Positions 675 to 50,930 are shown, numbered from the stretch's first letter. The stretch: 64,000 nt of DNA from an uncultured Pseudohongiella sp. (GCA_965228725.1 OZ245834.1:674198-738197), one strand, 5' to 3'. Notes: generated by a model not told the origin, from the sequence alone. Translations and numbers: made by a program.

Positions 675-680
675 CCCTAA

Positions 681-1204: not shown

Positions 1205-1264
1205 CATTAACATGGCCACCTGATGCTTCGATACTTATTGCAACGTAGCCCAAAGGAGCTCCAA

Positions 1265-1933: not shown

Positions 1934-1958
1934 CCTAGAATAGAGTTCAGCAGCCAAC

Positions 1959-2024
1959 ACATATCAATCAGTTCATCTGGGACACGTCACTGCGTAGAGC
2001 GTAGCAATTACAGGGACGTTGTAT
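1959..2024 (+). repeat. attC-like site (R'' ACATATC ... R' GTTGTAT)
   Basis: acatatc-aatcagttc ... cagggac-gttgtat. Same left motif as the other sites, with AAC mutated to ATC. Confidence 0.5.
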
Positions 2025-2044
2025 AAACCGGCCAGCTACAAGAA

Positions 2045-2875: not shown

Positions 2876-2923
2876 TAGTCCATCAACTCAGAAAAAGGAG
2901 ATCGGCTGAGAGATAGGACTGGA

Positions 2924-2989
2924 ACACAACAATCAGTTCGCTTGGTATATGCCACCACGTGGCGCTTCCCAATAAGCAGAGCAATTCTG
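2924..2989 (+). repeat. attC-like site, right box lost (AATTCTG)
   Basis: acacaac-aatcagttc-gcttgg..gccaccacgtggcgc..cccaa..gcagagc-aattctg. Confidence 0.4.
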
Positions 2990-3389
2990 ATCGCGTCTTG
3001 AACAAATTCTCGTCGAACACTACTGAATTGATTCTTCCTGACTTCCGAATTTCAATATCGCGCGGTCATTAACAAACTGCGCCCTGTTCCCACCTAGCAA
3101 TGCCTCTGCCCTGCCCTATACCAACGGCTCTGATCCCGGCGCCTGCAGGCAATGTGGAAAGCACGCGACATTAGGTTACGCACTATCTGTTACGTGGGCT
3201 TATGTGGGGCGGTACCCGACCAAATTTCTTTGCATCCCGGCAATTATGGGGTATTGTTCTTGTATCGGCGTCAGCTCAGCCCGCGTTCCGAAATCTGCCG
3301 ATTGAGCCTGCGGAACGACGCTTGGCGACAATTAACTCAATATTGGACGCACCTCGACTTCATCTGCGCATAGCGCCACCGGGGGAATA

Positions 3390-3650
3390 ATGTCAAACAA
3401 CTGGTTGCTGGCGGGGAAAAACTCGAAGTTTCAGCAAGCAGGTGCAGAGCCTGCCGGTATGGCAATTGGACTTTGGCACGGGGCGCTAATATTGGTTACC
3501 TGGTTTGCGAGCCTCTACGACTCAAACTACGGCATTTACGAACCGAACAATGACGGAGCATTCTACAATACAGGCTATGTCCTGGGTGCAAGTATAGGAA
3601 TTCTCGGTAGTCTACTCTTTCTAGTCTCGATTCTGTCTCGAGCTTACTAG
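3390..3650 (+). CDS. small membrane protein (hypothetical, cassette ORF)
   Basis: 86-aa ORF with two hydrophobic segments (GMAIGLWHGALILVTWF; YVLGASIGILGSLLFLVSIL). Confidence 0.5.
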   Translation: MSNNWLLAGKNSKFQQAGAEPAGMAIGLWHGALILVTWFASLYDSNYGIYEPNNDGAFYNTGYVLGASIGILGSLLFLVSILSRAY

Positions 3651-3658
3651 AAGCATGG

Positions 3659-3723
3659 GACAAACAATCTACTCAAATTTGACACTCTACTTCGTGGCGC
3701 TCCCTAAATTAAGGGCGTTACCT
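3659..3723 (+). repeat. attC-like site (R'' GACAAAC ... R' GTTACCT)
   Basis: gacaaac-aatctactc ... ctaaattaagggc-gttacct. The next ORF starts 15 nt downstream. Confidence 0.55.
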
Positions 3724-3737
3724 CTATAGGCATATTT

Positions 3738-4214
3738 ATGAGTTTACGATTAGTTAAGAACTTAGCCTTTGCTGTGCTTGCAACGATAAGTGCGCCATCT
3801 GCATACTCATCAAGCGTCTTCAAATACGCCGAGATCGATATTCCATTTGAAATTAGCGCGGATGGGACTTGGGTGGAGGTATTTGACAGTCAAGAAAGCT
3901 GGAGTAATTTCTATCGTGAGAATACACCGAGCTACATTGATGAAAACGACGAACGAGCTATACCCCCGGAGTTTGATTTCAGTTTGTATAGATTGATAGC
4001 CGGTGGACTAGGCGGCGGAAGCGCTGGTCGCACCATATTGATGGATGTGGAGCATACATATTCAACATCGTATATATCGTCGACGGTAGTGTTAGCTGGC
4101 AGTAATTGTGCCGTAGCAGCAGTCTACACAAACCCAACGATCGTGATTTTAATTCCCAGATTAGAGAAAAGTCTCGCAATTTCCAAAAGTGAACTAGTTA
4201 AAAACTGCGAGTGA
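3738..4214 (+). CDS. secreted hypothetical protein (cassette ORF)
   Basis: 158-aa ORF, signal peptide MSLRLVKNLAFAVLATISAPSAYS. Confidence 0.6.
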   Translation: MSLRLVKNLAFAVLATISAPSAYSSSVFKYAEIDIPFEISADGTWVEVFDSQESWSNFYRENTPSYIDENDERAIPPEFDFSLYRLIAGGLGGGSAGRTILMDVEHTYSTSYISSTVVLAGSNCAVAAVYTNPTIVILIPRLEKSLAISKSELVKNCE

Positions 4215-4231
4215 GGGCATACGCGATCGAA

Positions 4232-4314
4232 ATGTAACAATCAGCTCGGTCAGCCTTTTTCGATCCAATGGACAAACTGACCGCGTAGCTTGCCCATTAA
4301 CCAGAGCGTTTAGT
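4232..4314 (+). repeat. attC-like site (R'' ATGTAAC ... R' GTTTAGT)
   Basis: atgtaac-aatcagc-tcggtcag ... ctgaccg ... ccagagc-gtttagt. 7-bp perfect arm cggtcag/ctgaccg. Confidence 0.55.
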
Positions 4315-4316
4315 GT

Positions 4317-4835
4317 ATGAACATGAACCTGAGTCTTGCAATGTTAGCCTTACTAGCACCCCTAACTAGCCAAGCCCAGGAGTACTCCTGGTTCGAAGAC
4401 GAATGGGTATCGGACACTGAGGCAACCATTGCGATCAATCCCGAGTATCGGGACGGAGACGAAGCCACTCTGGTAGCTCTAAGAGAAATATACGGAAGAA
4501 TCAGATGGAATATAGAGGGCAACGAGCTAACTTTTATCGACCCAACAACCACGCCAGCGATCTCTTCTACCAACCCCTTTACCATCCATCCAATTGATTC
4601 AACTAGCTTTGATATTGTTATTGAGCAGAGTTTACCCAAAAACGACTCCGACAATTCTTTCGATTATGAAGCTCTCGATTTATCAGAAATTCAAACGAAT
4701 AGCTCCAGATATGTTATTACGATCACTAAGACTGAGAACGGTTTTTGCATAATTCCGAAGCCCAATTTCATTGTTGTTGCTGATGGCTCCAGGACAATGC
4801 TGAAGTACGAATGTTTTGAGCCATATGACCCGTAA
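4317..4835 (+). CDS. secreted hypothetical protein (cassette ORF)
   Basis: 172-aa ORF, signal peptide MNMNLSLAMLALLAPLTSQAQ. Starts 3 nt after the attC-like site. Confidence 0.6.
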   Translation: MNMNLSLAMLALLAPLTSQAQEYSWFEDEWVSDTEATIAINPEYRDGDEATLVALREIYGRIRWNIEGNELTFIDPTTTPAISSTNPFTIHPIDSTSFDIVIEQSLPKNDSDNSFDYEALDLSEIQTNSSRYVITITKTENGFCIIPKPNFIVVADGSRTMLKYECFEPYDP

Positions 4836-4895
4836 CAATCAGTTTGTTTGGGATTCGATTCGACACATTGATTCCGGTTAACTGTAGCGTTTTGT
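4830..4895 (+). repeat. attC-like site (R'' CCGTAAC ... R' GTTTTGT)
   Basis: Stop codon TAA (4833-4835) is embedded in ccgTAAc-aatcagttt ... ctgtagc-gttttgt. Confidence 0.55.
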
Positions 4896-4924
4896 GTTAT
4901 TGCAATGGAGTGCCAGATTAAAAA

Positions 4925-5440
4925 ATGAATTGGTTTAAAGATGTTTATCTAATCAATGCGAAGCAAGCCTCAATCGCACTTCGAGATGGCAGCATAACTG
5001 AGTATCAAGCCCTGAAACATTTGATTACAACAACTGTTCTCGTGGGTGCAAATGTATCTGTTCCTATTACATTTACTATGGAGTCTGAGTTCTCTTTTTC
5101 TGCATTTTATGTCGAGAATCTGATGTATTTTCTGATTCTTGCTGCTGTATCTTACTATGGACTGCTGATGTGCTATCAAGCCAATTCTAAAGGTGATGGC
5201 CGTGAGTTTTTCGTAAGACTGGTCACATTAGGCCTTCCTGTCATGATACGAGTAGCGGTTTTTTCAGCACTAGTTTTTATTCTACTAACCATGCTCTTGT
5301 CTCTACTGCTCGGCAATTTGGGCGGGATCAGCATGCCAACATTCAATAGCTATCAATTTCTTTTCATTGTGGCCGTGAATATGAGCTATTTCATTACTCT
5401 TAGAAAGTATGTGGCCAATTCAGCCGGTTATACACAGTAA
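4925..5440 (+). CDS. multi-pass membrane protein (hypothetical, cassette ORF)
   Basis: 171-aa ORF with about 4 hydrophobic helices. Confidence 0.6.
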   Translation: MNWFKDVYLINAKQASIALRDGSITEYQALKHLITTTVLVGANVSVPITFTMESEFSFSAFYVENLMYFLILAAVSYYGLLMCYQANSKGDGREFFVRLVTLGLPVMIRVAVFSALVFILLTMLLSLLLGNLGGISMPTFNSYQFLFIVAVNMSYFITLRKYVANSAGYTQ

Positions 5441-5445
5441 GTACT

Positions 5446-5529
5446 TCAAAATAATCAGTTCAATCACCCGGTAAGCCGACTACTCGGACAAATGACAACG
5501 ACACTGACCTATAACCACGGGCACTCTGT
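5446..5529 (+). repeat. attC-like site, strongly degenerate
   Basis: tcaaaat-aatcagttc left motif is retained. The right end cacgggc-actctgt lacks GTT. Confidence 0.3.
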
Positions 5530-5548
5530 ACGATAAAAACAAACAGCA

Positions 5549-5944
5549 ATGAACATCATACGGACAGCTATCTCAACGATTGCCCACTTCCTGCTGGCTG
5601 GGGTGTATTTAGTCACGATCTTTGGGTTCAGAACCGACTTTCAAGCTGTCGGAGATGTCGAACCGTTTCAGCAGGTAGTTTTCTGGGTTCTCTACGCGAT
5701 CTATATTGTATTTACCTTTCCACTGACACTTATGATCTATGCGTTCCCGGAATTACTGGGATTATTCGGGAAACACTTCACTCCTGTCTGGTTATTGTTA
5801 CAACTTGGTATTAGCTACATTCAAGTGCGTATAGCGAGGGACATACACAGAACACGCGCTCGCTCAGGACGCGCAGCTACTCAGCACATCACAAATAGCG
5901 AAGAAGTGTGTACCCAGGTCGGCTATGGAAGCTATGTTCATTGA
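5549..5944 (+). CDS. membrane protein (hypothetical)
   Basis: 131-aa ORF with 3-4 hydrophobic helices. Only 16 nt before the next ORF, so they share one unit. Confidence 0.55.
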   Translation: MNIIRTAISTIAHFLLAGVYLVTIFGFRTDFQAVGDVEPFQQVVFWVLYAIYIVFTFPLTLMIYAFPELLGLFGKHFTPVWLLLQLGISYIQVRIARDIHRTRARSGRAATQHITNSEEVCTQVGYGSYVH

Positions 5945-5960
5945 TGAAAAGTGAGGCATT

Positions 5961-6398
5961 GTGCAAAAAACCGCGCATGAGCAGGGTTTGGATATTGTTA
6001 AGCAACACAATCTCAAACTCAGTGAGAAGTCTTTGGCTTTGCTAAAACGCATTGAAGCTCAACCAGGGGCTATAGCAAAGCCTATGACTCCCCCTAAAGC
6101 ATCCGTTCCCAATGTCCTGGTTTACAAGGTCATGAACAAAATGTTCGCCATTATGTCCATACGCGGGACTGAGGGTGTGATTTTGAAATGCGACCCTGAC
6201 CTGGTGTTGTTCTTACGTGAGAAATACACAGGTGTCGGTCATCGTAGTCACCTGGATTCTCGGTTCTGGATTAGCGTGAGTCTCGACTCTGATGTCCCTG
6301 TAGATGAAATTAATAGGCTCGTCGAACATTCCTACGAACAAGTCTATTCGAAACTAACTCGCAAGCAGAAGGCTGAACTTTCAGAGCTAGCTAACTAG
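5961..6398 (+). CDS. MmcQ/YjbR-family putative DNA-binding protein
   Basis: Pattern KMFAIMS..GVILKCDPD...GHRSHLDSRFWISVSLDSDVP..EINRLVEHSYEQVYSKLTRKQK matches my recollection of the YjbR family. GTG start is uncertain. Confidence 0.65.
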   Translation: MQKTAHEQGLDIVKQHNLKLSEKSLALLKRIEAQPGAIAKPMTPPKASVPNVLVYKVMNKMFAIMSIRGTEGVILKCDPDLVLFLREKYTGVGHRSHLDSRFWISVSLDSDVPVDEINRLVEHSYEQVYSKLTRKQKAELSELAN

Positions 6399-6478
6399 AA
6401 TGACGTCAAACCATTGAAAATATGACGACAGATAGCGAACAGTTCCATGCACTGGCGTAAGTACCCAGCCTATGCGAC

Positions 6479-6561
6479 ACAAAATACCGGGATCAGCGCA
6501 GAACCGATCCCGCTTCTGGTTTTAGTTTTGACAGCTACATGCTTGTCGCCAGAGGTTAGGG
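6479..6561 (+). repeat. possible attC-like site (R' GTTAGGG)
   Basis: acaaaat-accgggatcagcgcagaaccgatccc (6-bp arms gggatc/gatccc) ... gccagag-gttaggg. The right box is followed by the palindrome partner cgctaac. Confidence 0.35.
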
Positions 6562-6631
6562 CGCTAACAGCGCAGCACCCTGCTACATTATCGAGCCCGC
6601 CATGGCTTTTACATTCTAAGCTTTCGCCGAG

Positions 6632-7207
6632 GTGAATTTGATCAGAATTGCTTTTGTCTATTACACCAATACAGACGTTACAGGTGAACTTATAAGGTCT
6701 GCTTTCGAGGAAATCGACACGTCAGGTGTTGAAGTATTCTCACATCGCATTTCAGGAAGTGAGATCATCGAAGGAAGGTTTGTAAATCAGGAGCTCATGA
6801 CCCTGCTCCATAGTTGCTCAGGAATAGTATTCGGTTCTCCGACCTACATGGGTAATGTCGCGGCGCAGTTCAAAGCATTCGCTGATGCGACCAGTGACTT
6901 CTGGTCAGAGCAGAAATGGTCCGGCAAAGTTGCAGCGGGTATTACTTCGGGCACTGGGCTCAATGGGGATCAGACTTGCTCACTTCAATACTTTTCTACA
7001 CTTGCCAGTCAGCATGGAATGCTATGGGTTGGACTAGACACGCCATACAGCAACGCAGAAGGCAATGTGAATCGGCTCGGATGCCAGCTTGGCGTAACTG
7101 CATGTAGTACAGACGGTGACATTCATCCAGGCGATAGTGAAAGCGCAAAGTATCTTGCTCGAAGGGTATTGGAAATTTGCCAAAAACTAGCACGCAACAG
7201 CAATTGA
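6632..7207 (+). CDS. flavodoxin-fold NAD(P)H:quinone oxidoreductase (WrbA-like)
   Basis: IAFVYYT..TG N-terminus, GIVFGSPTYMGNVAAQFKAFADAT, and a KVAAGITS...Q segment typical of the WrbA/flavodoxin-like fold. GTG start. Confidence 0.7.
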   Translation: MNLIRIAFVYYTNTDVTGELIRSAFEEIDTSGVEVFSHRISGSEIIEGRFVNQELMTLLHSCSGIVFGSPTYMGNVAAQFKAFADATSDFWSEQKWSGKVAAGITSGTGLNGDQTCSLQYFSTLASQHGMLWVGLDTPYSNAEGNVNRLGCQLGVTACSTDGDIHPGDSESAKYLARRVLEICQKLARNSN

Positions 7208-7258
7208 TAACTCAGCTGATAGATCCACGGACAGATCAACTCACTACAGGGCGCTACG
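7205..7258 (+). repeat. weak attC-like site
   Basis: tgataac-tcagctg ... acagggc-gctacgc. Short, with a GCT in place of GTT. Confidence 0.25.
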
Positions 7259-7303
7259 CCGACAGATCAATAAAAACAATAACGTAACAGCGAAACCACA
7301 ATA

Positions 7304-7672
7304 ATGAATAAATTTGCTTCAACCGTAGTCTATGTACTCGGCGATGCCAAAGACGTTCTGGATTTTTATGTCGATGCGTTTAGCTTGAAGATCAAACACT
7401 TTGACGAGCAGTTCAACTTCGGTGAGTTGGACACGGGAGACACGACAATCGCTGTGGCCAATCATTCAGCCGGCGAGTTTATGATAGGCAAGAACTACTT
7501 CGCACAATCTGACGGACTCCCGAAGAACATCGAGTTTGCGTTCTATGCAGAAGATGTAAGCCAGTCATATGACGTGGCGATTGAGAACGGCTGCGAAAGC
7601 CTGTTAGAACCCAGGACCATGTCCTGGGGGCAAACTGTTGCTTATGTAAAAGCATCGAGGGCACAATCGTAG
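7304..7672 (+). CDS. VOC/glyoxalase-family protein, C-terminus apparently frameshifted
   Basis: VVYVLGDAKDVLDFYVDAFSL...HSAGEF...FAFYAEDV is a VOC-like pattern. After the A-run at 7648-7651 the expected C-terminus (SIEGTIVGLISTP*) continues in another frame to 7692. Confidence 0.65.
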   Translation: MNKFASTVVYVLGDAKDVLDFYVDAFSLKIKHFDEQFNFGELDTGDTTIAVANHSAGEFMIGKNYFAQSDGLPKNIEFAFYAEDVSQSYDVAIENGCESLLEPRTMSWGQTVAYVKASRAQS

Positions 7673-7724
7673 GCCTGATATCCACCCCATAACACGGCCG
7701 CTCTTAGGCCCTTCTGGTGAGACG

Positions 7725-8156
7725 ATGAAATTCTATACGGCTCTTTTTACAACGCTGATTTCATTAACTGGCACTCATGCACACCATGACATTTCCGACG
7801 ATTTTGCTACCTCTCTCAGTCAAATTGGAGGCGTGATAACCGGCTTGGAGTGGAGCGATCCCCACGTGCTGGTTCGACTATCTATACATCCAGATTCAGC
7901 TAGTTCCCAGCATTATCTTATCGAGATGGGGCCTCCCGAGGAACTGGAAGAGGAAGGGATTACTATCGATACATTTGAGCTTATGAGCCGTGTCAGCATT
8001 GTTGCCTACTCATCCAAATCCAAGGTTTCTGAGCATGGATACTACCTGTATGGACTCTACCTTGTTGAATCCCAATCGCATAAGCTGCTTGTGAACAAGG
8101 CTTTATACGAGATACTCCCGCAAGTCGATTTTCCAAGCTTTAAAGTCGACCCATAA
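7725..8156 (+). CDS. secreted hypothetical protein
   Basis: 143-aa ORF, signal peptide MKFYTALFTTLISLTGTHA. Confidence 0.55.
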   Translation: MKFYTALFTTLISLTGTHAHHDISDDFATSLSQIGGVITGLEWSDPHVLVRLSIHPDSASSQHYLIEMGPPEELEEEGITIDTFELMSRVSIVAYSSKSKVSEHGYYLYGLYLVESQSHKLLVNKALYEILPQVDFPSFKVDP

Positions 8157-8171
8157 TATCCATGTAGAGAT

Positions 8172-14751: not shown

Positions 14752-16887
14752 ATGACCAACGCACTCAGCTTCTCCCCCGCTCTGCCTTCTCGCCGCAAAC
14801 TGCTTCCACTAGCAATAGTGCTGGCACTGCCCTGCACTGCTGCCGTGGCACAGAATGACAGCGAAGCGATGGAGGAGATTCTGGTAACGACCACGCGTAC
14901 CAACACGCCGCTGAGCCAGATTCCCAATACGGTAACTCTCATCGATCAGCAGGATCTGGATCAGCAGATCAGCATCAACAACGACCTCTCGACGCTGCTG
15001 GGTAACCTGATCCCCAGCTTCTCGCCAAGTCGCCAGAAGATGACCAGCTATGGTGAGAGTCTGCGCGGTCGTGATCCCTTGTATATGGTGGATGGCGTTC
15101 CCCAGTCGAATCCACTGCGCGACGGTTCCCGCGATGGACATACCATCGACCCCCTGATGCTGGAGCGCATTGAAGTGATACATGGCGCCAATGCCATTCA
15201 TGGTCTCGGCGCCTCGGGCGGCATTATCAATCTGATCACCCGTCGCCCTGAAGAAGCCTGGCAGCAGAGCCTGCGTGTTGAATCCTATGGCCAGGAGGAA
15301 GATCTCGGTGAGAGCCTGGGCTATGGCACTAACTACAGCGTGTCCGGTCGCAGTGGCGATGTCGACGTGCTGGCGAGCTTCAGCTATCGCACAACTGGCA
15401 TCAGCTACGATGCCAATGGCGATATCGTCGGCTTTGATAACGCGCAGGGCGACACCATGGATGCGGATACTCGCAACGTGTTCCTCAAGAGCGGCTATGA
15501 GTGGGACGATCAGCGCATCGAACTGACCCTCAATGACTTCACGCTTGAAGGCAATAGCGACTGGATTGCTGTAAACGGCGATATCTCCGAAGGCATCCCC
15601 ACCACGGCAGTCCCAGGCTCGGTGCCCGGTGAGCCAGTCAGCAATGACGTCACCATGGTCGCGCTGAGCTACAGCAACGACGATTTCTTCGGCCATGATC
15701 TGCGCCTGCAAGGTTACGACCAATCCTTTGCCGGTACTTATGGCGGCGGCAATTTTGGGACGTTCCAGGACCCAGCCTACGGGGCTGACGTCTATGACCA
15801 GTCACAAAACAATTCGGACAAACGCGGTTTCAAATTGACTATGGCGCTGGAGGAAGTGGGCGACCTGCCACTGGGCATCGTTTACGGTGCTGACTATCTG
15901 AGCGACGAGACTTTCCAACAGCTCGTGCTGACTGGTCGCAACTGGGTGCCCGAGACAAACTACGAGAACTACTCCTATTTCGCCCAGGCAGACTACAGCG
16001 GCATCGAAAACCTGACCATTACCGCAGGCATTCGCCATGAGCGGAGCGCGCTGGAGGTGAATGACTTCACCACACTGTACTCCTATAACGGCGGCCAGTT
16101 TGTTGCCGGTGGCGATCCTGATTTCAGCGAAACGCTCGGCAATATCGGCGCAACCTACAATGTGAGTGAGTCCTGGCGCCTGTTTGCCAATTACTCGGAA
16201 GGCTTCTCCATGCCGGATGTAGGACGTGTACTGCGCGGGATCAATATTCCCGATCAAAACGTGGAGACCTTCCTCAATCTGGAGCCAATCATCACGGAGA
16301 ATACAGAGCTCGGCGTGGAGTTCGATAACCGCGTTGTCTCTGCACAGCTCAGCTACTACACATCGGATTCCGATCTTGGCCAGCGCCTGCAGGCGAACGC
16401 CGACGGCATCTATAGCGTGCAGCGCGAGATGACAGAGATCGACGGCATCGAGGTGCGTGCCCAATGGCAGGCCAGCAACATCGATAGCCTGGGCTTTCGT
16501 TATGCACACACCGATGGCCAGTATGACTCCGACGACAATGGCTCAGTCGATACCGATCTCAGCGGCGCGAACATGTCGCCTTCCCGTCTCAATCTGAGCT
16601 GGGAGCGACAGTGGACTACTGACCTGCTCTCGCGACTGCAGATCAACGTATTGCAGGACAGAGACTTCGACAACGCCGCCGGCGTAACGACCACTCGCTT
16701 CGACGGCTATACCACGGTTGATCTGTACGGCGAATACAGCTTCGGCTCAAGCGCCGTGCGTGTGGGGCTTCAGAACCTCACCAATACCGACTATTTCACC
16801 TATTATTCCCAGACGCTGGGCAACGATGGGCGAAACTTCAAAGGGATCGGCCGCAGCTTCAGCCTGTCCTACAACATGAACTTCTAA
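14752..16887 (+). CDS. TonB-dependent outer-membrane (siderophore-type) receptor
   Basis: Signal peptide from the ATG at 14752, TonB-box-like EEILVTTTR, plug and beta-barrel pattern, C-terminal ...SLSYNMNF ending in an aromatic residue. Confidence 0.9.
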   Translation: MTNALSFSPALPSRRKLLPLAIVLALPCTAAVAQNDSEAMEEILVTTTRTNTPLSQIPNTVTLIDQQDLDQQISINNDLSTLLGNLIPSFSPSRQKMTSYGESLRGRDPLYMVDGVPQSNPLRDGSRDGHTIDPLMLERIEVIHGANAIHGLGASGGIINLITRRPEEAWQQSLRVESYGQEEDLGESLGYGTNYSVSGRSGDVDVLASFSYRTTGISYDANGDIVGFDNAQGDTMDADTRNVFLKSGYEWDDQRIELTLNDFTLEGNSDWIAVNGDISEGIPTTAVPGSVPGEPVSNDVTMVALSYSNDDFFGHDLRLQGYDQSFAGTYGGGNFGTFQDPAYGADVYDQSQNNSDKRGFKLTMALEEVGDLPLGIVYGADYLSDETFQQLVLTGRNWVPETNYENYSYFAQADYSGIENLTITAGIRHERSALEVNDFTTLYSYNGGQFVAGGDPDFSETLGNIGATYNVSESWRLFANYSEGFSMPDVGRVLRGINIPDQNVETFLNLEPIITENTELGVEFDNRVVSAQLSYYTSDSDLGQRLQANADGIYSVQREMTEIDGIEVRAQWQASNIDSLGFRYAHTDGQYDSDDNGSVDTDLSGANMSPSRLNLSWERQWTTDLLSRLQINVLQDRDFDNAAGVTTTRFDGYTTVDLYGEYSFGSSAVRVGLQNLTNTDYFTYYSQTLGNDGRNFKGIGRSFSLSYNMNF

Positions 16888-38427: not shown

Positions 38428-40653
38428 ATGGCGATCAAGCACCCCCAGTTTCCGGCCGCCGCCTATAATGACACCGCTACGCTCGTGCAGCCCTGCCCTG
38501 GCTCACGCCTGGTCGAAGACGATAACGGTAGCGTCCTGTTTGGCCAGCCGCCCGAGGTTCTGAAAGGCCTGCTTCTGGCTGGGATCAATAATTTCGACAC
38601 CATCGTACTGCCGGATATCAAAGAGAAGAGCGGATCACTGACTAACAGCCTCGAGTTTCCCCTCTATTTCTTCCTCTTCGTCAGCAAGGGGCTGGAAGAA
38701 GGGCGCAGACTCAATCTGGTGGGCGAAGCCACCGATATCTCCCATGCCCTGCGCCTGCTGCGCATTACCCTGCTGGGGCCCACCCGACCTGAACTGGAGG
38801 GCTGGGGTACGGAACCCGCCCTACGAGACGAATGGCTGGCCGCGGCCTGTGAGCTCGCGCTCAAGGACGCAGACGGACGCATTATCCCGGTCGAAGACTT
38901 CTTCAATATCGTGCCTTTCGAGCAGGGTGTCGCTGCAATTGGGCGCCAGACGATAGCCCATCTCGGACCCGACCTCTTTGAACTCAGCTCCGCCGGCAAC
39001 GGCGTCATGCGGATCGATCTGAACGAAGATACGCGGATCGATCCCCCGTATCCCATGCAGCCGGATTATGTGCCTGGCGGGCTGGTCAAAATGGGCATCG
39101 AGGTACTTGGCGGAGCCTCGGGTTTCACACCGACAGAACCGTGTACGGGGCTCGCGCTGTGCTACAACGGGGAGTACCTGTTGATCGACTGCATACCCTT
39201 CCTGGAACAACATCTGTTCGCTCGCGGCATCTCCAGGAATCAGATCAGCGCAGTGTTCCTCACGCATCTGCATGACGACCACTCCTCGCTTTTACCGTTA
39301 CTGCAGATGCCCCAACGCATTGACCTCATCACGACCCGAGAAATCTACACGATGGCGATGGAGAAAATCGCCTGCGGGATCGGCTGGACTCCCGACGTGG
39401 TTGCGGAGCATTTTCGGCTGGAAGAAGTTGTTCCCGGCAAACGATTGAATTATTTCGGCCTGAGCATCGAACCCCACGTGACCGTGCACAGCATCCCGAC
39501 CATCGGCGCGACCTTCTCAACCGTCCACAAAGGAATCCGTCGAGAGATCTGCGTGGTCGGTGACAACCACGCCATGAGTTCAGTGCGCGAGATGACCAGT
39601 CGTGGCTTGATACGCGCGTCGACAACCAGCAATCTCGAACGTCTTTATAGTGATCGTTTCGCCCTGCTAGTGGCCGACGGTGGTGCTGGTGCCATCCATG
39701 GCGATCCTGCCGACGCCATTCAATCCGGTTCTGACCGCGTTGTGTTCGTACATGTAGAGCAGCTCACCAATGAGTTCAATACCACTTTCTCACTGGCGAC
39801 CAGCGGCAAACGCTACACTATTCTCGAGGGCGACCCGGCAATCTATACTTCGCAAATCAATCACTACCTCACCTGCTGGCTAGGCCGCCCCTTCCCGAAT
39901 CGCTGGATGCGCAGCTTGCTGGCCGAAGAGGAGATTCGTCGCTACAACGCCGACGATGTGATTCTGGTGCAAGACACTACCACCCGCGGCTTCGTCTACC
40001 TGATACTCACCGGCTATTGTGATGTTGTCCGTCACGATGGCAGGGAGTTGCATTACGAGGCCAGCCTGCAGGCCGGCGACATACTCGGCGAGATGGCTGT
40101 CATCACCGGCGTCGGCACACGAAACGCGAGTGTCGTAGCAAAGACACCTGTCACCTTATGCGTTTTCTCAGAGGAGACGTTCAAGTCTTTCATCTTCGCA
40201 GAAGGTTTTCAGGACAAACTTCTGATGCAATGGGCCATGCGTCCACTCGTCTCGAAGCAGCCGCAATTCCGGGAACTGAGTTCTACGGTGCTGGAGAAAT
40301 TATGCAAGATGGGTGAGACCCGCTCACTGCAAGCCGGCGATGATCTCGCCATCGATGAAACCTACTGGTATCTACTGGCGATGGGTGATGCCAGCATTAG
40401 CGGAAAGCGCCTGTGTCGCGATGATGACTTCGGCAAGCGCCCATTCGCCGAGCCGCGCTACGGCAGTGTGAGCACTGAAAAAGGCTGCAAGTTGTTGTTG
40501 TTCAACGCAGAGCAACTGGATCAACTGCGACTGAGCACTCCACAACTCAATTACATTCTGCGGAAATTGCGTGTGTTGGAGGATAGTGCTGGGGTAGACT
40601 GGCTACTGGGTCCTGTTTCGATAACCGATCAGTATTCAGCTATTCCACACTAG
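38428..40653 (+). CDS. MBL-fold metallohydrolase fused to tandem cyclic-nucleotide-binding domains
   Basis: HLHDDH (nt 39265-39282) fits HxHxDH. C-terminal FVYLILTGYCDVV...GDILGEMAVITG..RNASVVA is a cNMP-binding pattern, followed by a second weaker copy. 741 aa. Confidence 0.8.
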   Translation: MAIKHPQFPAAAYNDTATLVQPCPGSRLVEDDNGSVLFGQPPEVLKGLLLAGINNFDTIVLPDIKEKSGSLTNSLEFPLYFFLFVSKGLEEGRRLNLVGEATDISHALRLLRITLLGPTRPELEGWGTEPALRDEWLAAACELALKDADGRIIPVEDFFNIVPFEQGVAAIGRQTIAHLGPDLFELSSAGNGVMRIDLNEDTRIDPPYPMQPDYVPGGLVKMGIEVLGGASGFTPTEPCTGLALCYNGEYLLIDCIPFLEQHLFARGISRNQISAVFLTHLHDDHSSLLPLLQMPQRIDLITTREIYTMAMEKIACGIGWTPDVVAEHFRLEEVVPGKRLNYFGLSIEPHVTVHSIPTIGATFSTVHKGIRREICVVGDNHAMSSVREMTSRGLIRASTTSNLERLYSDRFALLVADGGAGAIHGDPADAIQSGSDRVVFVHVEQLTNEFNTTFSLATSGKRYTILEGDPAIYTSQINHYLTCWLGRPFPNRWMRSLLAEEEIRRYNADDVILVQDTTTRGFVYLILTGYCDVVRHDGRELHYEASLQAGDILGEMAVITGVGTRNASVVAKTPVTLCVFSEETFKSFIFAEGFQDKLLMQWAMRPLVSKQPQFRELSSTVLEKLCKMGETRSLQAGDDLAIDETYWYLLAMGDASISGKRLCRDDDFGKRPFAEPRYGSVSTEKGCKLLLFNAEQLDQLRLSTPQLNYILRKLRVLEDSAGVDWLLGPVSITDQYSAIPH

Positions 40654-47474: not shown

Positions 47475-47538
47475 AGCTGCAGGCAGCGCAGCCTGCTCAT
47501 AGGATACGAATCGAGAATTGACACAGGAGCGCTATCGC

Positions 47539-48123
47539 TCATTCCTCTGGCGGGCGTGAACCGAAGCTGAGTGGGTATAGCGGGTAGAGAGTAAAGAAGT
47601 CGCGCAGCCTGAACTCGTTCAGTACTTTTTGACTGTAGCCACGCTTGCGGTTGCGAAATTGGTCATAATCGCGATAGCGCAGTTTGTGCAGGCAATCCTT
47701 GCACACGACCAGGCCATGCGACACCAGCGACACATCCCCGCCCGGTCGAATCTTCAACAAATCATAGTCTTCAGCGAGTCGGGTCGTGGCCAGAAATTCC
47801 TGCTGCGGGTGCTCGGCCAGCTCTGTTTCGATCCGCGCACAGCGCGCGACATGGTAGGTAGGAAACTCGCGGTGGGTGCGATAGTAGTTTTCATCGGGAT
47901 TGTAGATGAGTACCCGGGAATTTTTCACGGCAAGTGTGTTATCCGGGAGGAACTTCAATTGCGCTAACGGCAGCAGTTTACCCGCGCTCTCAAGTTCCGA
48001 ACGCTCATTTCCTGTCAGGTGGATCGCCGGGTCAAACAGCTCGAAGTAACCGAGCTCACTCGCACCCATCTTCTCCCGTAGCGTATTGAACGGAGCGAAG
48101 TCGGTGAAATCCAGCAACTCCAT
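47539..48123 (-). CDS. small Cys/His-containing protein, third gene of the MotAB-like trio (candidate effector)
   Basis: 194 aa. TYHVARCARI ... SHGLVVCKDCLHKL. Starts immediately after the MotB-like stop. Confidence 0.6.
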   Translation of the reverse strand: MELLDFTDFAPFNTLREKMGASELGYFELFDPAIHLTGNERSELESAGKLLPLAQLKFLPDNTLAVKNSRVLIYNPDENYYRTHREFPTYHVARCARIETELAEHPQQEFLATTRLAEDYDLLKIRPGGDVSLVSHGLVVCKDCLHKLRYRDYDQFRNRKRGYSQKVLNEFRLRDFFTLYPLYPLSFGSRPPEE

Positions 48124-48831
48124 TTAGCGGATCTCCTGCAAAATGGTCGACAGCCGGGTTTCCGCGTCGGTTACAACAACGAATTCAACGCGCCGTGAAC
48201 GATCTGCGTCTTCAAAACCGTCTGGTGAGCGAATCAATTGCGAAGACGAGAGGCCGTTGGCGGTCAGGCGCTGTCGCAACCAGTCTTTCTCATGCGCCAC
48301 AGCGTCGAGTTCCATCAGATAGCCTAGCGTCGAGCGGGTACGCTCCTGAGAAAGCGCCATGTTTAACAGATAGGCCGCATCACTATCCTGTGCCTGAGAC
48401 CAGGAGCTGGAAGTGTGCCCTTCGATCCTGATCTCCAGAATCTCCTCGCGGTATTTGGGCGAGGCAAGTATTGTCATATAGCGCGGAAAAAACTCGGCAA
48501 GAATGTTTGCGAACTCAGCGCGCAGACTGGACTCCCCTTCCTCAAACAGCAGATCGGTGTTGGTGAAGCGCAAGCGCAGATCTTCATCGAGCTGTGCACC
48601 CCAGCGCGGCAAATCGCTTGCGAACTCCTGCTGCAGATCCGTGTAGAGTTCCTCTCGCAGATCCTCATACAGAACAACGACACGCTCAATCTCGTCATTC
48701 TTGCGCTCGACGATCACGAGATACATGACCGCAATCAGCAGGAACAGCATCATCAGCCCACTCATCAGATCGCTGACAGCAATCCAGTGTTCTTCCGTCT
48801 CCTGTTCCAGTTCTGTGTGCTGCAGACTCAT
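48124..48831 (-). CDS. MotB/OmpA-family peptidoglycan-binding stator-like protein (ZorB-like)
   Basis: TM helix with conserved Asp (WIAVSDLMSGLMMLFLL), like the MotB plug/TM. C-terminal OmpA-like IRIEGHTSS...NMALSQERTRS...RRVEFVV. Confidence 0.8.
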   Translation of the reverse strand: MSLQHTELEQETEEHWIAVSDLMSGLMMLFLLIAVMYLVIVERKNDEIERVVVLYEDLREELYTDLQQEFASDLPRWGAQLDEDLRLRFTNTDLLFEEGESSLRAEFANILAEFFPRYMTILASPKYREEILEIRIEGHTSSSWSQAQDSDAAYLLNMALSQERTRSTLGYLMELDAVAHEKDWLRQRLTANGLSSSQLIRSPDGFEDADRSRRVEFVVVTDAETRLSTILQEIR

Positions 48832-48861
48832 TACTGTGTGCTCTTCACTTGCAGCGCGGCG

Positions 48862-50082
48862 CTAGTTGCGCGGCGCCTCAAGTTGTTGTTCGGCGATTTG
48901 CAGCACCGAGCGCAGGCGATCCGTTAGCGGCATATAGTCATTCACGAATTTCTCAGACAGCGCAGTCAATTGATAACCAAAAGTCTGCAAAGCCTGAGTG
49001 AGCTCCTTCTCCATGGCCTCGTCGAGACGGCGTGCCTGTGCATCCGTTTTGTCTGCCATGGCCCGTACATGTTCCGCCAGCCCGCTATGGGCACTGTTGA
49101 CCGAAGCAGCAAGCGATTGATTGACCTCTGCTACCGTGGCGCTGATATCCCGAGCCGCCTGGCTGAGCAATTGGGTCACACTGCTGTTGTTCTGCTCGAT
49201 ACTCGCCGTGAGTTTCACCGTCAGCTCGCTGACATAATCACTCAGCGCGGGCAGCCCTTTTGAAGCCTGCCCCACCAGCCCCGACAAGCCGGACAGATAG
49301 CCTTCCAGATTGCGAGTCTGTTGCTCAAGCCCACTGAGCAGCTCACCCAGGGAACCGGCCACGCGATTGAATTCCCGCGAGTGTTCCAGCATTTGTTCGT
49401 AGGAGTCCCCCGCTTGCTGGATCACCTGAATACTGGACTGCTGTGCCTGCAGCATCTTGTCGAGCTGTGCTGTGTAGGACTGCTGCCAATCCAGAAGCTG
49501 GCCGAGTGACGCATTGAACTTCTGAAAATTCTCGCCGTATTGCACTTCGATGCGACTATTGAAGTCACGCATCACGGTCTCAATCGCCAGCGTTAACGCG
49601 TCACTGTTGGCACCAACCATCTCCTCGCGATAATGCCGATTGGCCTCGAGCAGGCTCGCATTGTCTTCCCGGCTCTCGAGCCTGAGTGCGTTGAGATTGT
49701 CGTTCAGCGCCACGATGGCATTGTTAAGGTCTGTGACAGTCGCCTGCTGGCTGGTCGCTGCGTCGGATTGCCGTATCGAGCGCAGAGCGGCACGCAGGCG
49801 GATACTGAGTGCACCGAGTATGCCTGTCACCGATGACCAGACTGCCACACCAAGGCCATCGATCATCAACGGCACACTCGCTTCGATATTGGCGCTATCA
49901 AATTGCATCAGGCCGAAGGCGATGCCGAGAAAAGTGCCAAAGATACCGAAGCTGGTCAGGATCGAGGGTGCACTGCGCACTGTCTGCTGCGAAAAACTCG
50001 GGCCATGGAAATAGGCGATCAAGCCCAGCATGGCGGCAATCAACACCCAGGTGATAGTGGTCAGGTCGAGCAGTGCAGCCAT
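48862..50082 (-). CDS. MotA/ExbB/TolQ-family channel protein with ~300-aa C-terminal coiled coil (ZorA-like)
   Basis: 3 TM helices, with ILTSFGIFGTFLGIAFGL matching the MotA/ExbB LGLLGTVxGm motif, then a long heptad-rich tail. Confidence 0.7.
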   Translation of the reverse strand: MAALLDLTTITWVLIAAMLGLIAYFHGPSFSQQTVRSAPSILTSFGIFGTFLGIAFGLMQFDSANIEASVPLMIDGLGVAVWSSVTGILGALSIRLRAALRSIRQSDAATSQQATVTDLNNAIVALNDNLNALRLESREDNASLLEANRHYREEMVGANSDALTLAIETVMRDFNSRIEVQYGENFQKFNASLGQLLDWQQSYTAQLDKMLQAQQSSIQVIQQAGDSYEQMLEHSREFNRVAGSLGELLSGLEQQTRNLEGYLSGLSGLVGQASKGLPALSDYVSELTVKLTASIEQNNSSVTQLLSQAARDISATVAEVNQSLAASVNSAHSGLAEHVRAMADKTDAQARRLDEAMEKELTQALQTFGYQLTALSEKFVNDYMPLTDRLRSVLQIAEQQLEAPRN

Positions 50083-50093: not shown

Positions 50094-50930
50094 TCAGTCT
50101 TCAGCCTGGCGACGATAGGCGCCGTAGATGAGCTCTTCAGTGAACTCCACACACTTGAATTCGAGTAGCTGAGCGTTCTCATCCAGCCGTCGATACAGAG
50201 GCAAGCGCAGGGTCCATGGGCGTGTGTAGGTATTGGGATCTTCCAGAGTCGCCTCATAGATCAACACGTCTGGCCCGCGATGTGTATAGCGCTCGGTCAC
50301 GCGCAATGCATCGCTGTGGTGATTACCTGCGTGGTCCAGCCAGGTATCCGGCACCTGATCGGTGACATCGATGACCAGAGTATCGCCCTCGAAATGCGCT
50401 CGTGAGTGACCCATCCAGGAGAATACCGGTGCCTCGAAGTCCGGGCGGTCGACATAGACGATGCGACTGGCACTGGCGAATTCGTAGGCGAATATCAGGT
50501 GCTCCGGTGATTGCACTATCTGGAAAGGGAATGGCAGGTAGTTCGCACGCGGCACACCCGGCATATAACACTTGACCAGTGGGTCGAGAGACAACCAGTC
50601 AGCGGCATTGGCCTGCTGCTGGGCCCTCGCTTCAGCGGTATATGGGATTTCTCCGCCAACCACGACTCCCACACTGGCCGCTGAGGCCCCAAAGGCGCCC
50701 AATACTGGCAAGGGGGGAAAGTCGGCTGCACTCGGCTCGACATTCCAGTGAGCAGCGCCGAGTGCCTGCCACAAGCCATTAAAATCCGGTCTGCCATCTG
50801 CGGTGCGCGGGATATCCTGCGCATTTGCCAGTCCCGCGACCGCGAGACTCACTACTACGAGCAGGACGCTCGCGAGGCGGTGTTGACCCATTTCCAGGAA
50901 CTTCTTAACCAACAACATGTTATGGAGCAT
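50094..50930 (-). CDS. periplasmic hypothetical protein
   Basis: Signal peptide ...AVAGLANAQD, 278-aa ORF (probable start at M14, 50891). Stop lies 11 nt before the ZorA-like start. Confidence 0.6.
   Translation of the reverse strand: MLHNMLLVKKFLEMGQHRLASVLLVVVSLAVAGLANAQDIPRTADGRPDFNGLWQALGAAHWNVEPSAADFPPLPVLGAFGASAASVGVVVGGEIPYTAEARAQQQANAADWLSLDPLVKCYMPGVPRANYLPFPFQIVQSPEHLIFAYEFASASRIVYVDRPDFEAPVFSWMGHSRAHFEGDTLVIDVTDQVPDTWLDHAGNHHSDALRVTERYTHRGPDVLIYEATLEDPNTYTRPWTLRLPLYRRLDENAQLLEFKCVEFTEELIYGAYRRQAED

What the first reader, a model, noticed from the sequence alone, without database searches (positions are those of the whole stretch)
47539..50082. Zorya-like MotA/MotB stator module with a short tail and an unrecognised third gene
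- Gene 1 (406 aa) has three TM helices carrying the MotA/ExbB channel motif (SFGIFGTFLGIAFGL), followed by a ~300-aa coiled coil.
- Gene 2 (235 aa) has a MotB-type TM with the proton-relay Asp (AVSDLMSGL) and an OmpA-like peptidoglycan-binding domain.
- Gene 3 (194 aa) starts at the nucleotide after the gene 2 stop.
- This is the ZorA-ZorB-plus-effector logic of Zorya anti-phage systems, and gene order and size resemble type II (ZorABE).
- The MotA-like protein lacks the large cytoplasmic insert and very long tail that I associate with type I ZorA.
- I cannot recognise gene 3 as a canonical HNH ZorE. It may therefore be a variant or new Zorya subtype.
Basis: partly seen in the sequence, partly recalled or inferred. 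Interest (0 to 1): 0.65.

Follow-up and report, generated by a model that had tools for sequence, protein, structure and literature searches.

The report
Zorya II system lacking its nuclease
This is a recognisable type II Zorya anti-phage gene trio (ZorA-ZorB-ZorE) whose third protein keeps only the zinc-binding front half of ZorE and lacks the DNA-cutting HNH domain thought to do the killing, so it is a natural test of how Zorya works without its nuclease.

Summary
The three minus-strand genes exist exactly as described: 406, 235 and 194 aa, with the zorB stop abutting the zorE ATG. PADLOC profiles assign them to type II Zorya: ZorA2 at E 5e-92 and ZorB2 at E 4e-90, both full length, and ZorE2 at E 4e-27. 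Genes 1 and 2 best match PDB 8VVI, the type II ZorA5B2 motor, and the critical ZorB Asp (D21) is present. The "short tail" is normal for type II.

Gene 3 is a ZorE homologue that covers only the N-terminal DUF8245 domain. It has an invariant H91/C95/C141/C144 site, and the HNH nuclease domain is absent. This is not a truncation:
- About 130 relatives are all 178-225 aa.
- dN/dS is about 0.07-0.16.
- 51 of 70 short cluster representatives form one clade.
- No ZorE-type HNH is encoded in the window or in 57 related loci.
- The DUF8245 model (pLDDT 93) has no structural neighbour in the PDB or BFVD.

In Pseudohongiellaceae the trio sits in one fixed chromosomal slot among housekeeping genes and co-diverges with them. 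Unbiased sampling shows it has been lost repeatedly, so it is not a core locus.

Verdict: a new, uncharacterised variant of a known system. The effector step is unknown.

The parts
48862..50082 (-). zorA (406 aa), the type II ZorA: three N-terminal TM segments, then a C-terminal helical tail of about 310 aa
   Evidence: PADLOC ZorA2 PDLC00637, E 5e-92, full length. Best PDB match is 8VVI chain F, the type II ZorA of S. kujiense, E 7e-35, including the conserved tail tip FGYQLTALSEKFVNDYMPLTDRLR. Three hydrophobic windows.
49801..50073 (-). ZorA membrane core (residues 4-94) with the channel motif SFGIFGTFLGIAFGL at residue 44
   Evidence: Hydropathy windows 4-22, 41-59 and 76-94. Aligned to the 8VVI ZorA TM region.
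48865..49785 (-). ZorA cytoplasmic tail (residues 100-406)
   Evidence: No TM segment and pI 4.7. Aligns to the 8VVI tail. The type II tail is described as residues 110-378 in S. kujiense.
48124..48831 (-). zorB (235 aa): one TM segment plus an OmpA-like peptidoglycan-binding domain
   Evidence: PADLOC ZorB2 PDLC00641, E 4e-90. Pfam OmpA 29.4 bits, above the gathering score of 27.2. 8VVI chain A, E 4e-49.
48769..48771 (-). ZorB Asp21 codon, the ion-relay aspartate
   Evidence: D21 in WIAVSD21LM aligns with the Asp of 8VVI ZorB. D21 is named as the critical type II ZorB residue in PMC11890865. Position confirmed.
47539..48123 (-). Short zorE (194 aa): DUF8245 domain only, no HNH nuclease domain
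   Evidence: PADLOC ZorE2, E 4e-27, covering only profile positions 3-179 of 282. All relatives carry PF26739/DUF8245 only. Aligns at 1-181 to residues 5-180 of a 291-aa ZorE whose HNH is at 218-259. No HNH by regex or HMM.
48016..48123 (-). Conserved N-terminal peptide of ZorE (residues 1-36, M-x-L-x-D-F..F.PFN.LR..M...), shared by short and long ZorE
   Evidence: L3, F6, L15 and M19 are at least 89% conserved in both length classes. A docking role on the ZorA tail is inference only.
47692..47853 (-). Span containing the putative zinc site H91 (47851-47853), C95 (47839-47841), C141 (47701-47703) and C144 (47692-47694)
   Evidence: These are the only four invariant columns across 117 short and long family members, and are 100% conserved in both classes. 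H91 corresponds to H90 of E. coli ZorE, which is placed in a predicted Zn site there, and H90A abolishes defence there. Codons read directly.
47632..47655 (-). Basic insertion specific to short forms, R157-N-R-K-R-G-Y-S164 (family consensus RNRRRGYS)
   Evidence: R157, N158, R159, R161, G162 and S164 are invariant in the 40-sequence family alignment. Columns 159/160 are gaps in at least 90% of long forms.
47479..47496 (.). GC-rich hairpin (gcaggc-tgcgct-gcctgc) in the 64-nt gap between zorE and the convergent CDP-alcohol phosphatidyltransferase gene; a possible bidirectional terminator
   Evidence: Read directly. It was not picked up by the terminator scan because it has no T-run, so this is weak and inferred.

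Best explanation
The locus is a three-gene type II Zorya system, zorA-zorB-zorE, in a Pseudohongiellaceae chromosome. Its ZorE is a naturally short protein made only of the DUF8245 domain.

Shown:
- ZorA and ZorB are full-length homologues of the structurally solved type II ZorA5B2 ion-driven, peptidoglycan-anchored motor, with the relay Asp intact.
- ZorE keeps the family-invariant H/C/C/C site and the conserved N-terminal peptide, but has no HNH domain. No ZorE-type HNH is encoded nearby.
- The three genes are translationally packed, are under strong purifying selection, and decay together when lost.

Inferred mechanism, by analogy with published type II work: ZorA5B2 senses phage-induced envelope perturbation. 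Ion flow through the ZorB Asp drives the ZorA tail. The tail then recruits or activates the soluble ZorE at the membrane.

Because this ZorE cannot cut DNA by the HNH route, the last step must be different. My preferred guess is that the DUF8245 module engages the incoming nucleic acid, or a host factor, non-catalytically. It would then block the target or hand it to a nuclease encoded elsewhere. The identity of the system is near certain. The defence role is probable. The effector chemistry is unknown.
For: Identity:
- PADLOC ZorA2, ZorB2 and ZorE2 at E 5e-92, 4e-90 and 4e-27.
- PDB 8VVI (type II ZorAB) is the best match for genes 1 and 2.
- D21 is present. The OmpA domain scores above the gathering threshold.

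Short ZorE is real and functional:
- 131 relatives, all 178-225 aa, all PF26739 only.
- 49 invariant columns in the 40-sequence family alignment.
- dN/dS is 0.07 (median) to 0.16 (summed ratio), against 0.12-0.26 for flanking housekeeping genes.
- In the 1.84-billion-protein library the family is bimodal: 72 short and 69 long among the top 150. The HNH motif occurs in 0/72 short and 50/69 long representatives.
- 51 of 70 short representatives form one pure clade.
- Complete short ORFs with stop codons occur in cultured Reinekea and Aestuariirhabdus genomes.

No HNH in cis: an HMM built from 44 ZorE HNH domains finds nothing at E<=10 in six-frame ORFs of the window plus 57 loci. The same HMM recovers 68 long representatives.

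Functional coupling: in decayed loci zorE is broken whenever zorAB is deleted. TAA and ATG abut.

Mechanistic precedent: ZorE is recruited to the membrane by ZorAB on infection. The DUF8245 H90 Zn-site residue is required for defence in E. coli.
Against: - In E. coli the HNH catalytic residues (H226 and others) are required for Zorya II defence. A nuclease-less ZorE therefore has no demonstrated way to stop a phage.
- The locus is not in a defence island. Its neighbours are metabolic and housekeeping genes, with no tRNA or integrase. The short form is absent from plasmids and phages.
- All three proteins fall far below the NCBIfam equivalog cut-offs.
- Gene 3 is not basic: pI 6.1, with a short-class median of 7.6 against 8.9 for long-form N-domains. 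It has also lost the long-form motifs YIRD and RYV. Both points weaken a simple DNA-binding model.
- A confident DUF8245 model has no structural neighbour, so there is no fold-based functional hint.
- No phenotype data exist.
Confidence: 0.55

Rival explanations
1. Adaptor model. The short ZorE is only the ZorA-tail-binding or target-binding half of the effector. It works with a nuclease, or another toxic effector, encoded elsewhere in the genome. ZorAB activation then brings two separately encoded proteins together.
For: - The N-terminal peptide and the Zn site are conserved between short and long forms. This suggests DUF8245 carries a shared, non-catalytic role.
- E. coli ZorE can cooperate functionally with another system (Druantia III) without a stable complex.
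- There is no nuclease in either of the two conserved neighbourhoods.
Against: - No candidate partner was seen.
- The only gene often adjacent, the 278-aa secreted ORF, is absent from about 9 carriers and stays intact when zor decays.
- The Reinekea-type neighbour is a TRAP-transporter TAtT component.
- The rest of the genome could not be searched.
Confidence: 0.2
2. Domesticated, non-defence module. In this lineage the ZorAB motor and the DUF8245 protein have been co-opted for a cellular role, such as envelope-stress or ion-motive-force sensing coupled to a cytoplasmic response. That would explain the loss of the nuclease.
For: - The trio sits in a fixed chromosomal slot among housekeeping genes in more than 40 species.
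- Zor proteins co-diverge with the flanks: Pearson r 0.79-0.85, Mantel p<=5e-4, as tight as housekeeping versus housekeeping at 0.81-0.88.
- ZorB and ZorA are as conserved as, or more conserved than, FbiC and SURF1. dN/dS is 0.07-0.16.
- There is a second deep synteny, oadA-oadB-zorABE, across Reinekea, Saccharospirillum and Aestuariirhabdus.
- There is no mobile-element association.
Against: - Sampling anchored on a flank gene shows the trio is often missing: 3 intact, 5 decayed and 15 absent among slot-spanning metagenome contigs. Absences are nested among carriers, with at least 6-8 transitions. It is therefore dispensable, as accessory defence genes are.
- Every known relative with a phenotype is anti-phage.
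Confidence: 0.2
3. Degenerating system. Gene 3 is a truncated ZorE remnant and the locus is on its way to being lost.
For: Several relatives do show genuine decay of this locus.
Against: - In the window all three ORFs are intact.
- The 194-aa form is the norm in about 130 clusters and in a clade of 51 clusters.
- It is under strong purifying selection.
- It ends at the natural DUF8245 boundary, not at a random point.
- Truly decayed copies look different: split ORFs, a C144W change, and fusions.
Confidence: 0.03
4. Ordinary stator or energiser pair (MotAB/PomAB, TolQR, ExbBD) with an unrelated downstream gene.
For: There is remote MotA/MotB ancestry. Weak MotB-family NCBIfam hits and a MotB_plug hit fall below threshold.
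Against: - The best matches by tens of orders of magnitude are ZorA2 and ZorB2 and the Zorya II structure 8VVI.
- Gene 1 has a 300-aa tail that MotA, TolQ and ExbB lack.
- There are no TolA, TonB or flagellar genes nearby.
- Gene 3 is a ZorE homologue.
Confidence: 0.02

Closest known systems
Type II Zorya (ZorA-ZorB-ZorE) of E. coli ATCC 8739/EDL933 and Sulfuricurvum kujiense (PDB 8VVI)
   Same: - Same gene order and strand.
- ZorA has a 3-TM core plus a C-terminal tail, and the tail tip is conserved.
- ZorB has D21 and an OmpA-like peptidoglycan-binding domain.
- ZorE has the DUF8245 N-terminal domain with the His/Cys site equivalent to E. coli H90.

   Different: - The ZorE here ends at the DUF8245 boundary. 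It lacks the central HNHc domain, whose residues (H226, K231, N234/H235, H247/H253) are needed for E. coli defence.
- It lacks the long-form motifs YIRD and RYV and has a short-form-specific RNRRRGYS insertion.
- It scores below the NCBIfam equivalog cut-offs.
- It sits in a fixed housekeeping context, not a defence island.
Zorya II on Psychrobacter plasmid pA17BP1 (NZ_MN657036.1; locus L058)
   Same: A compact zorA (363 aa)-zorB (223 aa, OmpA)-zorE trio. Its ZorE residues 5-180 align with gene 3 residues 1-181 (24% identity, E 2e-19).
   Different: - The plasmid ZorE is 291 aa with a Pfam HNH domain at 218-259.
- It is carried on a 7.4-kb mobilizable plasmid. The short form was found on no plasmid or phage.
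Short-ZorE Zorya II of Reinekea blandensis MED297, Saccharospirillum spp. and Aestuariirhabdus sp. (L052-L057)
   Same: The same architecture with a DUF8245-only ZorE of 166-220 aa. ZorB is 52-58%, ZorA 40-44% and ZorE 37-40% identical to the window proteins.
   Different: A different fixed context, downstream of oadA-oadB. These are cultured isolates, so they are experimentally tractable.
Type I Zorya (ZorABCD, E. coli; PDB 8QYD/8QYY) and type III (ZorABFG)
   Same: A ZorA5B2-type motor with a tail. Soluble effectors are recruited.
   Different: - Only weak matches to ZorA1 and ZorB1 models (E 1e-8 for ZorA1; ZorB1 E 5e-54, against ZorB2 at 4e-90).
- No zorC/zorD or zorF/zorG genes.
- The tail is much shorter than in type I.
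Flagellar MotAB/PomAB, TolQR and ExbBD 5:2 motors
   Same: A common ancestry of the membrane core, a relay Asp on the B subunit, and an OmpA-like peptidoglycan anchor.
   Different: - Gene 1 has no Pfam MotA_ExbB hit.
- Gene 1 has a long cytoplasmic tail.
- There are no flagellar, Tol or Ton partner genes nearby.

Membership tests
Zorya type II | ZorA: MotA/ExbB-like membrane core followed by a long C-terminal helical tail, matching ZorA2 profiles | tested here: met
   PADLOC PDLC00637, E 5e-92, profile 8-419/420. 8VVI_F, E 7e-35. Three TM windows plus a 310-aa tail.
Zorya type II | ZorB: single TM segment with the critical Asp (D21 in type II) and an OmpA-like peptidoglycan-binding domain | tested here: met
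   PDLC00641, E 4e-90. OmpA 29.4 bits, above 27.2. D21 aligned to 8VVI_A.
Zorya type II | Gene order zorA-zorB-zorE on one strand, tightly packed | tested here: met
   30-nt gap between zorA and zorB; zorB TAA abuts the zorE ATG. The same order is seen in more than 50 related loci.
Zorya type II | ZorE N-terminal DUF8245 domain with the conserved His/Cys (Zn) site | tested here: met
   PDLC00643, E 4e-27, positions 3-179/282. PF26739 is recorded on gene 3's exact-sequence database entry (P0001) and on all relatives. H91, C95, C141 and C144 are invariant in 117 sequences. H90 equivalence from PMC13192584.
Zorya type II | ZorE HNH endonuclease (nickase) domain | tested here: not met
   No Pfam HNH hit. 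HNH regex in 0/72 short versus 50/69 long representatives. HNH HMM finds no hit in the window plus 57 loci. Gene 3 ends before the HNH of a canonical ZorE.
Zorya type II | NCBIfam equivalog cut-offs for ZorA2, ZorB2 and ZorE | tested here: not met
   124.5 vs 700; 214.8 vs 400; 31.3 vs 600 bits. The proteins are distant from the E. coli-type seed sequences.
Zorya type II | Protection against phage that depends on all three genes and on ion flow | not testable with these tools
   No experimental data exist for any short-ZorE system. The only paper holding the term DUF8245 kept only ZorE variants with a recognisable endonuclease domain for its phylogeny.
Zorya type II | Typical (not defining) context: defence island or mobile element, patchy distribution | tested here: inconclusive
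   There is no defence island or mobile element, and the trio is vertically inherited. However, its distribution is patchy through repeated loss.
Zorya type I / type III | Presence of zorC+zorD (type I) or zorF+zorG (type III), with best matches to ZorA1/ZorA3 profiles | tested here: not met
   ZorA1 E 1e-8 and ZorA3 E 0.075, against ZorA2 at 5e-92. Only one downstream gene is present, and it matches ZorE.
MotAB / TolQR / ExbBD | Pfam MotA_ExbB domain above threshold and conserved partner genes (flagellar, TolA/Pal, TonB) | tested here: not met
   Gene 1 has no MotA_ExbB hit. MotB_plug scores 13.5 against 24. The neighbours are FbiC, an epimerase, a CDP-OH transferase, SURF1, DUF6644 and CopC.

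The most novel reading that the evidence does not exclude
A large, ancient clade of Zorya II systems works without any nuclease. In this reading the DUF8245 module, a zinc-binding fold with no solved relative, is the real conserved output of the ZorAB motor, and the HNH domain of textbook ZorE is an add-on. In these marine Gammaproteobacteria, ZorAB plus DUF8245 would then do one of two things. It could defend by a non-nucleolytic mechanism, such as blocking or capturing incoming DNA or signalling to host factors. Or it could have been co-opted for a non-immune envelope-sensing role.
Probability: 0.3. Interest if true: 0.75.

Novelty: new variant of a known kind. Interest (0 to 1): 0.5.

Why it matters
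Current models of type II Zorya end with the ZorE HNH nickase damaging DNA, and catalytic HNH mutants abolish defence in E. coli. This locus represents a large family in which the motor (ZorA, ZorB), the ZorE N-terminal domain and its zinc site are strongly conserved, while the nuclease is missing both from the protein and from the neighbourhood.

That gives a natural separation of function:
- It isolates what DUF8245 does on its own.
- It asks whether ZorAB signalling can be read out without DNA cleavage.

The repeated independent losses in Pseudohongiellaceae also provide a ready-made phylogenetic-profiling experiment for finding any partner encoded in trans. Carriers exist in cultured strains (Reinekea blandensis MED297, Saccharospirillum, Aestuariirhabdus).

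Practical point: HMM-based tools will label such loci "Zorya II" although the presumed effector chemistry is absent. At least one published ZorE phylogeny filtered these variants out instead of studying them.

Tried and rejected
1. Truncation or frameshift of a long zorE: rejected. Only 64 nt separate the stop from a convergent gene. The HNH HMM finds nothing in any frame. The short form is the family norm.

2. A split-off HNH gene, or a fourth conserved gene: rejected.
- The 278-aa secreted ORF abutting zorA is missing in about 9 carriers and survives when zor decays.
- It is unrelated to the gene downstream of the Reinekea-type loci, which is a TRAP TAtT component.

3. "Core, housekeeping-like locus": this was my own interim idea. 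I rejected it as stated after recognising that those loci had been found using gene 3 itself. Re-sampling on the flank gene TM331 showed frequent absence and decay. Vertical inheritance and strong constraint still stand. Universality does not.

4. A deeper alignment gave pLDDT 93. Foldseek found nothing at E<=0.001 in the PDB or BFVD. The PDB sequence search was also empty.

5. Promoter and terminator scans gave nothing above the shuffle expectation.

6. A cryptic HNH-like beta-beta-alpha motif around H136...C141xxC144...H146...N158: considered by eye. No third metal ligand is conserved, and the Cys/His residues are accounted for by the Zn site shared with long forms, which carry their HNH separately. 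Not pursued.

7. A scripting slip loaded only some locus files. It was corrected.

8. The literature searches turned up no study of nuclease-less ZorE or of family-level inheritance of Zorya.
Full report
**Observation**

- Gene 1 has three hydrophobic segments (residues 4-22, 41-59, 76-94). The quoted motif starts at residue 44. An acidic soluble tail of about 310 residues follows.
- Gene 2 has one TM segment (23-41) preceded by D21 within AVSDLMSGL. It has a Pfam OmpA domain just above the gathering score (29.4 vs 27.2 bits).
- The gene 2 TAA is directly followed by the gene 3 ATG.

**What the genes are**

PADLOC profiles give unambiguous type II Zorya assignments:
- Gene 1: ZorA2 (PDLC00637, E 5e-92, profile 8-419 of 420).
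- Gene 2: ZorB2 (PDLC00641, E 4e-90).
- Gene 3: ZorE2 (PDLC00643, E 4e-27).

Against the PDB, genes 1 and 2 best match chains F and A of 8VVI (E 7e-35 and 4e-49). [quoted passage not shown] That paper names D21 as the critical type II ZorB aspartate, and gene 2 has D21 at the aligned position. The 8VVI ZorA is 378 aa with its tail at residues 110-378, and type II tails are described as shorter than type I tails.

There is no support for an ordinary stator. Gene 1 has no Pfam MotA_ExbB hit. The surrounding genes are FbiC-like CofGH, an epimerase, a CDP-alcohol phosphatidyltransferase, SURF1, DUF6644, CopC, a thioesterase, a nitroreductase and a DegP-like protease.

All three proteins are far below the NCBIfam equivalog cut-offs. 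They are distant from the E. coli-type seeds, and public sources name them "hypothetical".

**Gene 3 is a ZorE without its nuclease**

The PADLOC match covers only profile positions 3-179 of 282. The NCBIfam ZorE match covers positions 88-170 of 358. Pfam gives no HNH hit.

A 2026 preprint (PMC13192584) describes E. coli ZorE as follows:
- An N-terminal DUF8245 domain, with H90 in a predicted Zn site and E99 and Y109 near DNA.
- A central HNHc domain (Y189, H226, K231, N234/H235, N238, H247, H253).
- Sometimes a C-terminal extension.
- Both H90A and H226A abolish defence.

Every one of the relatives of gene 3 found in the 5.8-billion-protein collection (131 at E <= 0.001; the 120 listed) is 178-225 aa and carries only PF26739 = DUF8245.

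As an annotated comparator I used the 7.4-kb mobilizable Psychrobacter plasmid pA17BP1. It carries a canonical zorA-zorB-zorE trio. Its 291-aa ZorE aligns at residues 5-180 with gene 3 residues 1-181 (E 2e-19), and its Pfam HNH domain lies at 218-259. Gene 3 ends 13 residues after the shared region.

**It is a family, not an accident**

A profile search of 1.84 billion cluster representatives found 642 family members. The top 150 are bimodal in length: 72 of 140-230 aa and 69 of at least 255 aa.
- A regular expression for the HNH block (CxxC...HH/HN...N...CxxCH) matches 0 of 72 short and 50 of 69 long representatives, starting at residues 202-243.
- An HMM built from 44 of these HNH domains recovers 68 long representatives (all at least 252 aa) and no short one. 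It finds nothing at E <= 10 in the six-frame translation of the 64-kb window and 57 related loci.
- On a neighbour-joining tree of the N-domain, 51 of 70 short representatives form a single pure clade.

Across 117 short and long sequences, the only invariant columns are H91, C95, C141 and C144. This is consistent with the Zn site reported for E. coli H90. The N-terminal peptide (L3, F6, L15, M19) is also shared. Short forms lack the long-form motifs Y-I-R-D (74-77) and R-Y-V (109-111). They carry a short-form-specific basic insertion, RNRRRGYS (157-164).

**Structure**

With the 40-sequence family alignment, AlphaFold2 gave a mediocre model (pLDDT 66). With 117 diverse sequences it gave a confident one (pLDDT 93, pTM 0.83). 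Foldseek found no neighbour at E <= 0.001 in the PDB or in BFVD with either model searched, and the PDB sequence search was empty. DUF8245 therefore has no solved relative, and the fold gives no hint of catalysis. Gene 3 is not notably basic (pI 6.1).

**Evolutionary behaviour**

A scan of GTDB species representatives with the gene 3 profile returned 51 loci. Forty-five are from Pseudohongiella, Pseudohongiellaceae or unclassified Pseudomonadales MAGs. All 45 carry zor genes in the same slot (intact in 42, decayed in 3): CopC / P342 / SURF1 / DUF6644 / TM198 / (a 278-aa secreted ORF) / zorA-zorB-zorE / a variable 0-6 kb / CDP-OH transferase / TM331 / epimerase / FbiC.

Among 24 genomes:
- Mean pairwise identity is 0.80 for ZorB, 0.75 for ZorA and 0.68 for ZorE. 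For comparison it is 0.73 for FbiC, 0.69 for SURF1 and 0.62 for the epimerase.
- Zor divergence tracks flank divergence (Pearson r 0.79-0.85, Mantel p <= 5e-4). Housekeeping-versus-housekeeping correlations are 0.81-0.88.
- dN/dS for pairs with unsaturated dS is 0.11 (ZorA), 0.095 (ZorB) and 0.07-0.16 (ZorE), against 0.12-0.26 for the flanks.

Six more distant loci also have a DUF8245-only ZorE (166-220 aa). They come from Reinekea blandensis MED297, three Saccharospirillum species, Granulosicoccus and Aestuariirhabdus. In five of them (all but the short Granulosicoccus contig) the trio lies downstream of oadA-oadB. The short form has no match in 50,697 phage records. In 72,556 plasmid records it has only two distant matches, both to non-short ZorE-like sequences.

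**A correction to my own reading**

Those loci were found using gene 3, so they say nothing about prevalence. I therefore anchored a metagenome scan on the flanking TM331 gene. Of the 23 contigs that span the slot:
- 3 have an intact trio.
- 5 have remnants.
- 15 have none. Three of these 15 belong to a deep outgroup.

On a TM331 tree, carriers are spread over the whole ingroup, and absent or decayed loci are nested among them. This needs at least 6 (any trace versus none) to 8 (intact versus not) changes.

The remnants show what real decay looks like:
- L043 has a 104-aa zorA stub, no zorB, and a zorE split into two ORFs with a C144W change.
- L050 has lost zorAB and has a split zorE.
- L051 is an in-frame zorA-zorE fusion.

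The 278-aa upstream ORF stays intact in all three, so it is not part of the system. ZorE decays whenever zorAB goes, which argues that the three genes work together.

In summary, the system is ancestral to this family, is inherited vertically without detectable replacement, and is tightly constrained where kept. It is also dispensable and has been lost repeatedly. That pattern fits an accessory function under fluctuating selection better than a housekeeping one.

**Mechanism**

What is shown is homology to an ion-driven, peptidoglycan-anchored 5:2 motor, and to the non-catalytic half of its effector.

What is inferred from published type II work is this: ZorAB recruits ZorE to the membrane on infection, and the motor, the tail and peptidoglycan binding are all required. 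On that basis ZorA5B2 would sense envelope perturbation and, through its tail, engage the short ZorE. The conserved N-terminal peptide and DUF8245 surface are the likely contact points.

The terminal step cannot be HNH nicking. I favour a non-catalytic action of DUF8245 on nucleic acid or on a host factor. A nuclease supplied in trans and a non-immune, co-opted role are the serious alternatives. I cannot discriminate among these with the tools available.

**Novelty**

The system type is known, and existing HMMs find it. PADLOC even contains a 162-position ZorE2 profile that gene 3 matches weakly. [quoted passage not shown] So nuclease-less ZorE calls have been seen, but they were set aside. 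I found no paper that analyses them. I rate this a new variant of a known kind, of moderate interest.

**Caveats**
- Trees are neighbour-joining on single proteins.
- Presence and absence states come from tblastn coverage on MAGs and metagenome contigs, which can contain assembly errors.
- The metagenome sample is limited to the best 80 loci and includes near-duplicates.
- The rest of the host genome could not be examined for a partner nuclease.

Noticed in passing
window 1-14000: GC content is 0.43-0.50 here against 0.53-0.60 for the rest of the window, which suggests a horizontally acquired island. Most ORFs there have no Pfam family. Exceptions are an alpha/beta hydrolase (2045-2875) and an FMN reductase (6632-7207).
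   Followed up: partly
window 9570-13555 (minus strand): Three consecutive ORFs of 305, 610 and 391 aa lie in the low-GC region. Only weak hits were found: a RicinB-like lectin for the first. For the third, there are coiled-coil-type cross-matches to PADLOC ZorA1-tail, LmuB and JetC models (E 6e-7 to 2e-4). This may be an uncharacterised module.
   Followed up: partly
window 50094-50930 (minus strand): A 278-aa ORF with an N-terminal signal-peptide-like sequence ends 11 nt upstream of the zorA start. It has no Pfam, NCBIfam or PADLOC family. It is 70-87% conserved and sits next to zorA in about 36 of 45 related loci, is absent in about 9, and remains intact where zor has decayed. It is probably independent of the system.
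   Followed up: yes
window 38428-40653 (plus strand): A 741-aa protein combines a metallo-beta-lactamase-fold domain with a cyclic-nucleotide-binding domain. Its PADLOC hits to Pycsar effector models come only from the cNMP-binding domain.
   Followed up: partly
L063, L064, L065 (metagenome loci; zor slot at about 10100-16500 in locus coordinates): Three closely related contigs appear to show successive stages of zor decay. L064 still has partial zorA (0.53 coverage), zorB (0.87) and zorE (0.48). L063 and L065 keep a near-full zorE plus a 20% zorB stub.
   Followed up: partly
L052-L054, L056, L057 (about 4800-10700 in L052-L054 and L057; about 1760-7400 in L056): In Saccharospirillum, Reinekea and Aestuariirhabdus the short-ZorE trio lies immediately downstream of the oxaloacetate decarboxylase genes oadA-oadB (a Na+ pump). 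In most of them it also lies upstream of a TRAP-transporter TAtT gene. Whether the link to a Na+-translocating enzyme means anything for the motor's coupling ion is unknown.
   Followed up: partly
window 47475-47538: The trio converges on a CDP-alcohol phosphatidyltransferase gene with only 64 nt between the stop codons. In relatives the same junction holds 0-6 kb of variable cargo (glyoxalase, DUF4440, M20 peptidase, DUF1232, NMO). It is therefore a local hotspot of gene-content change, with no defence genes seen there.
   Followed up: partly
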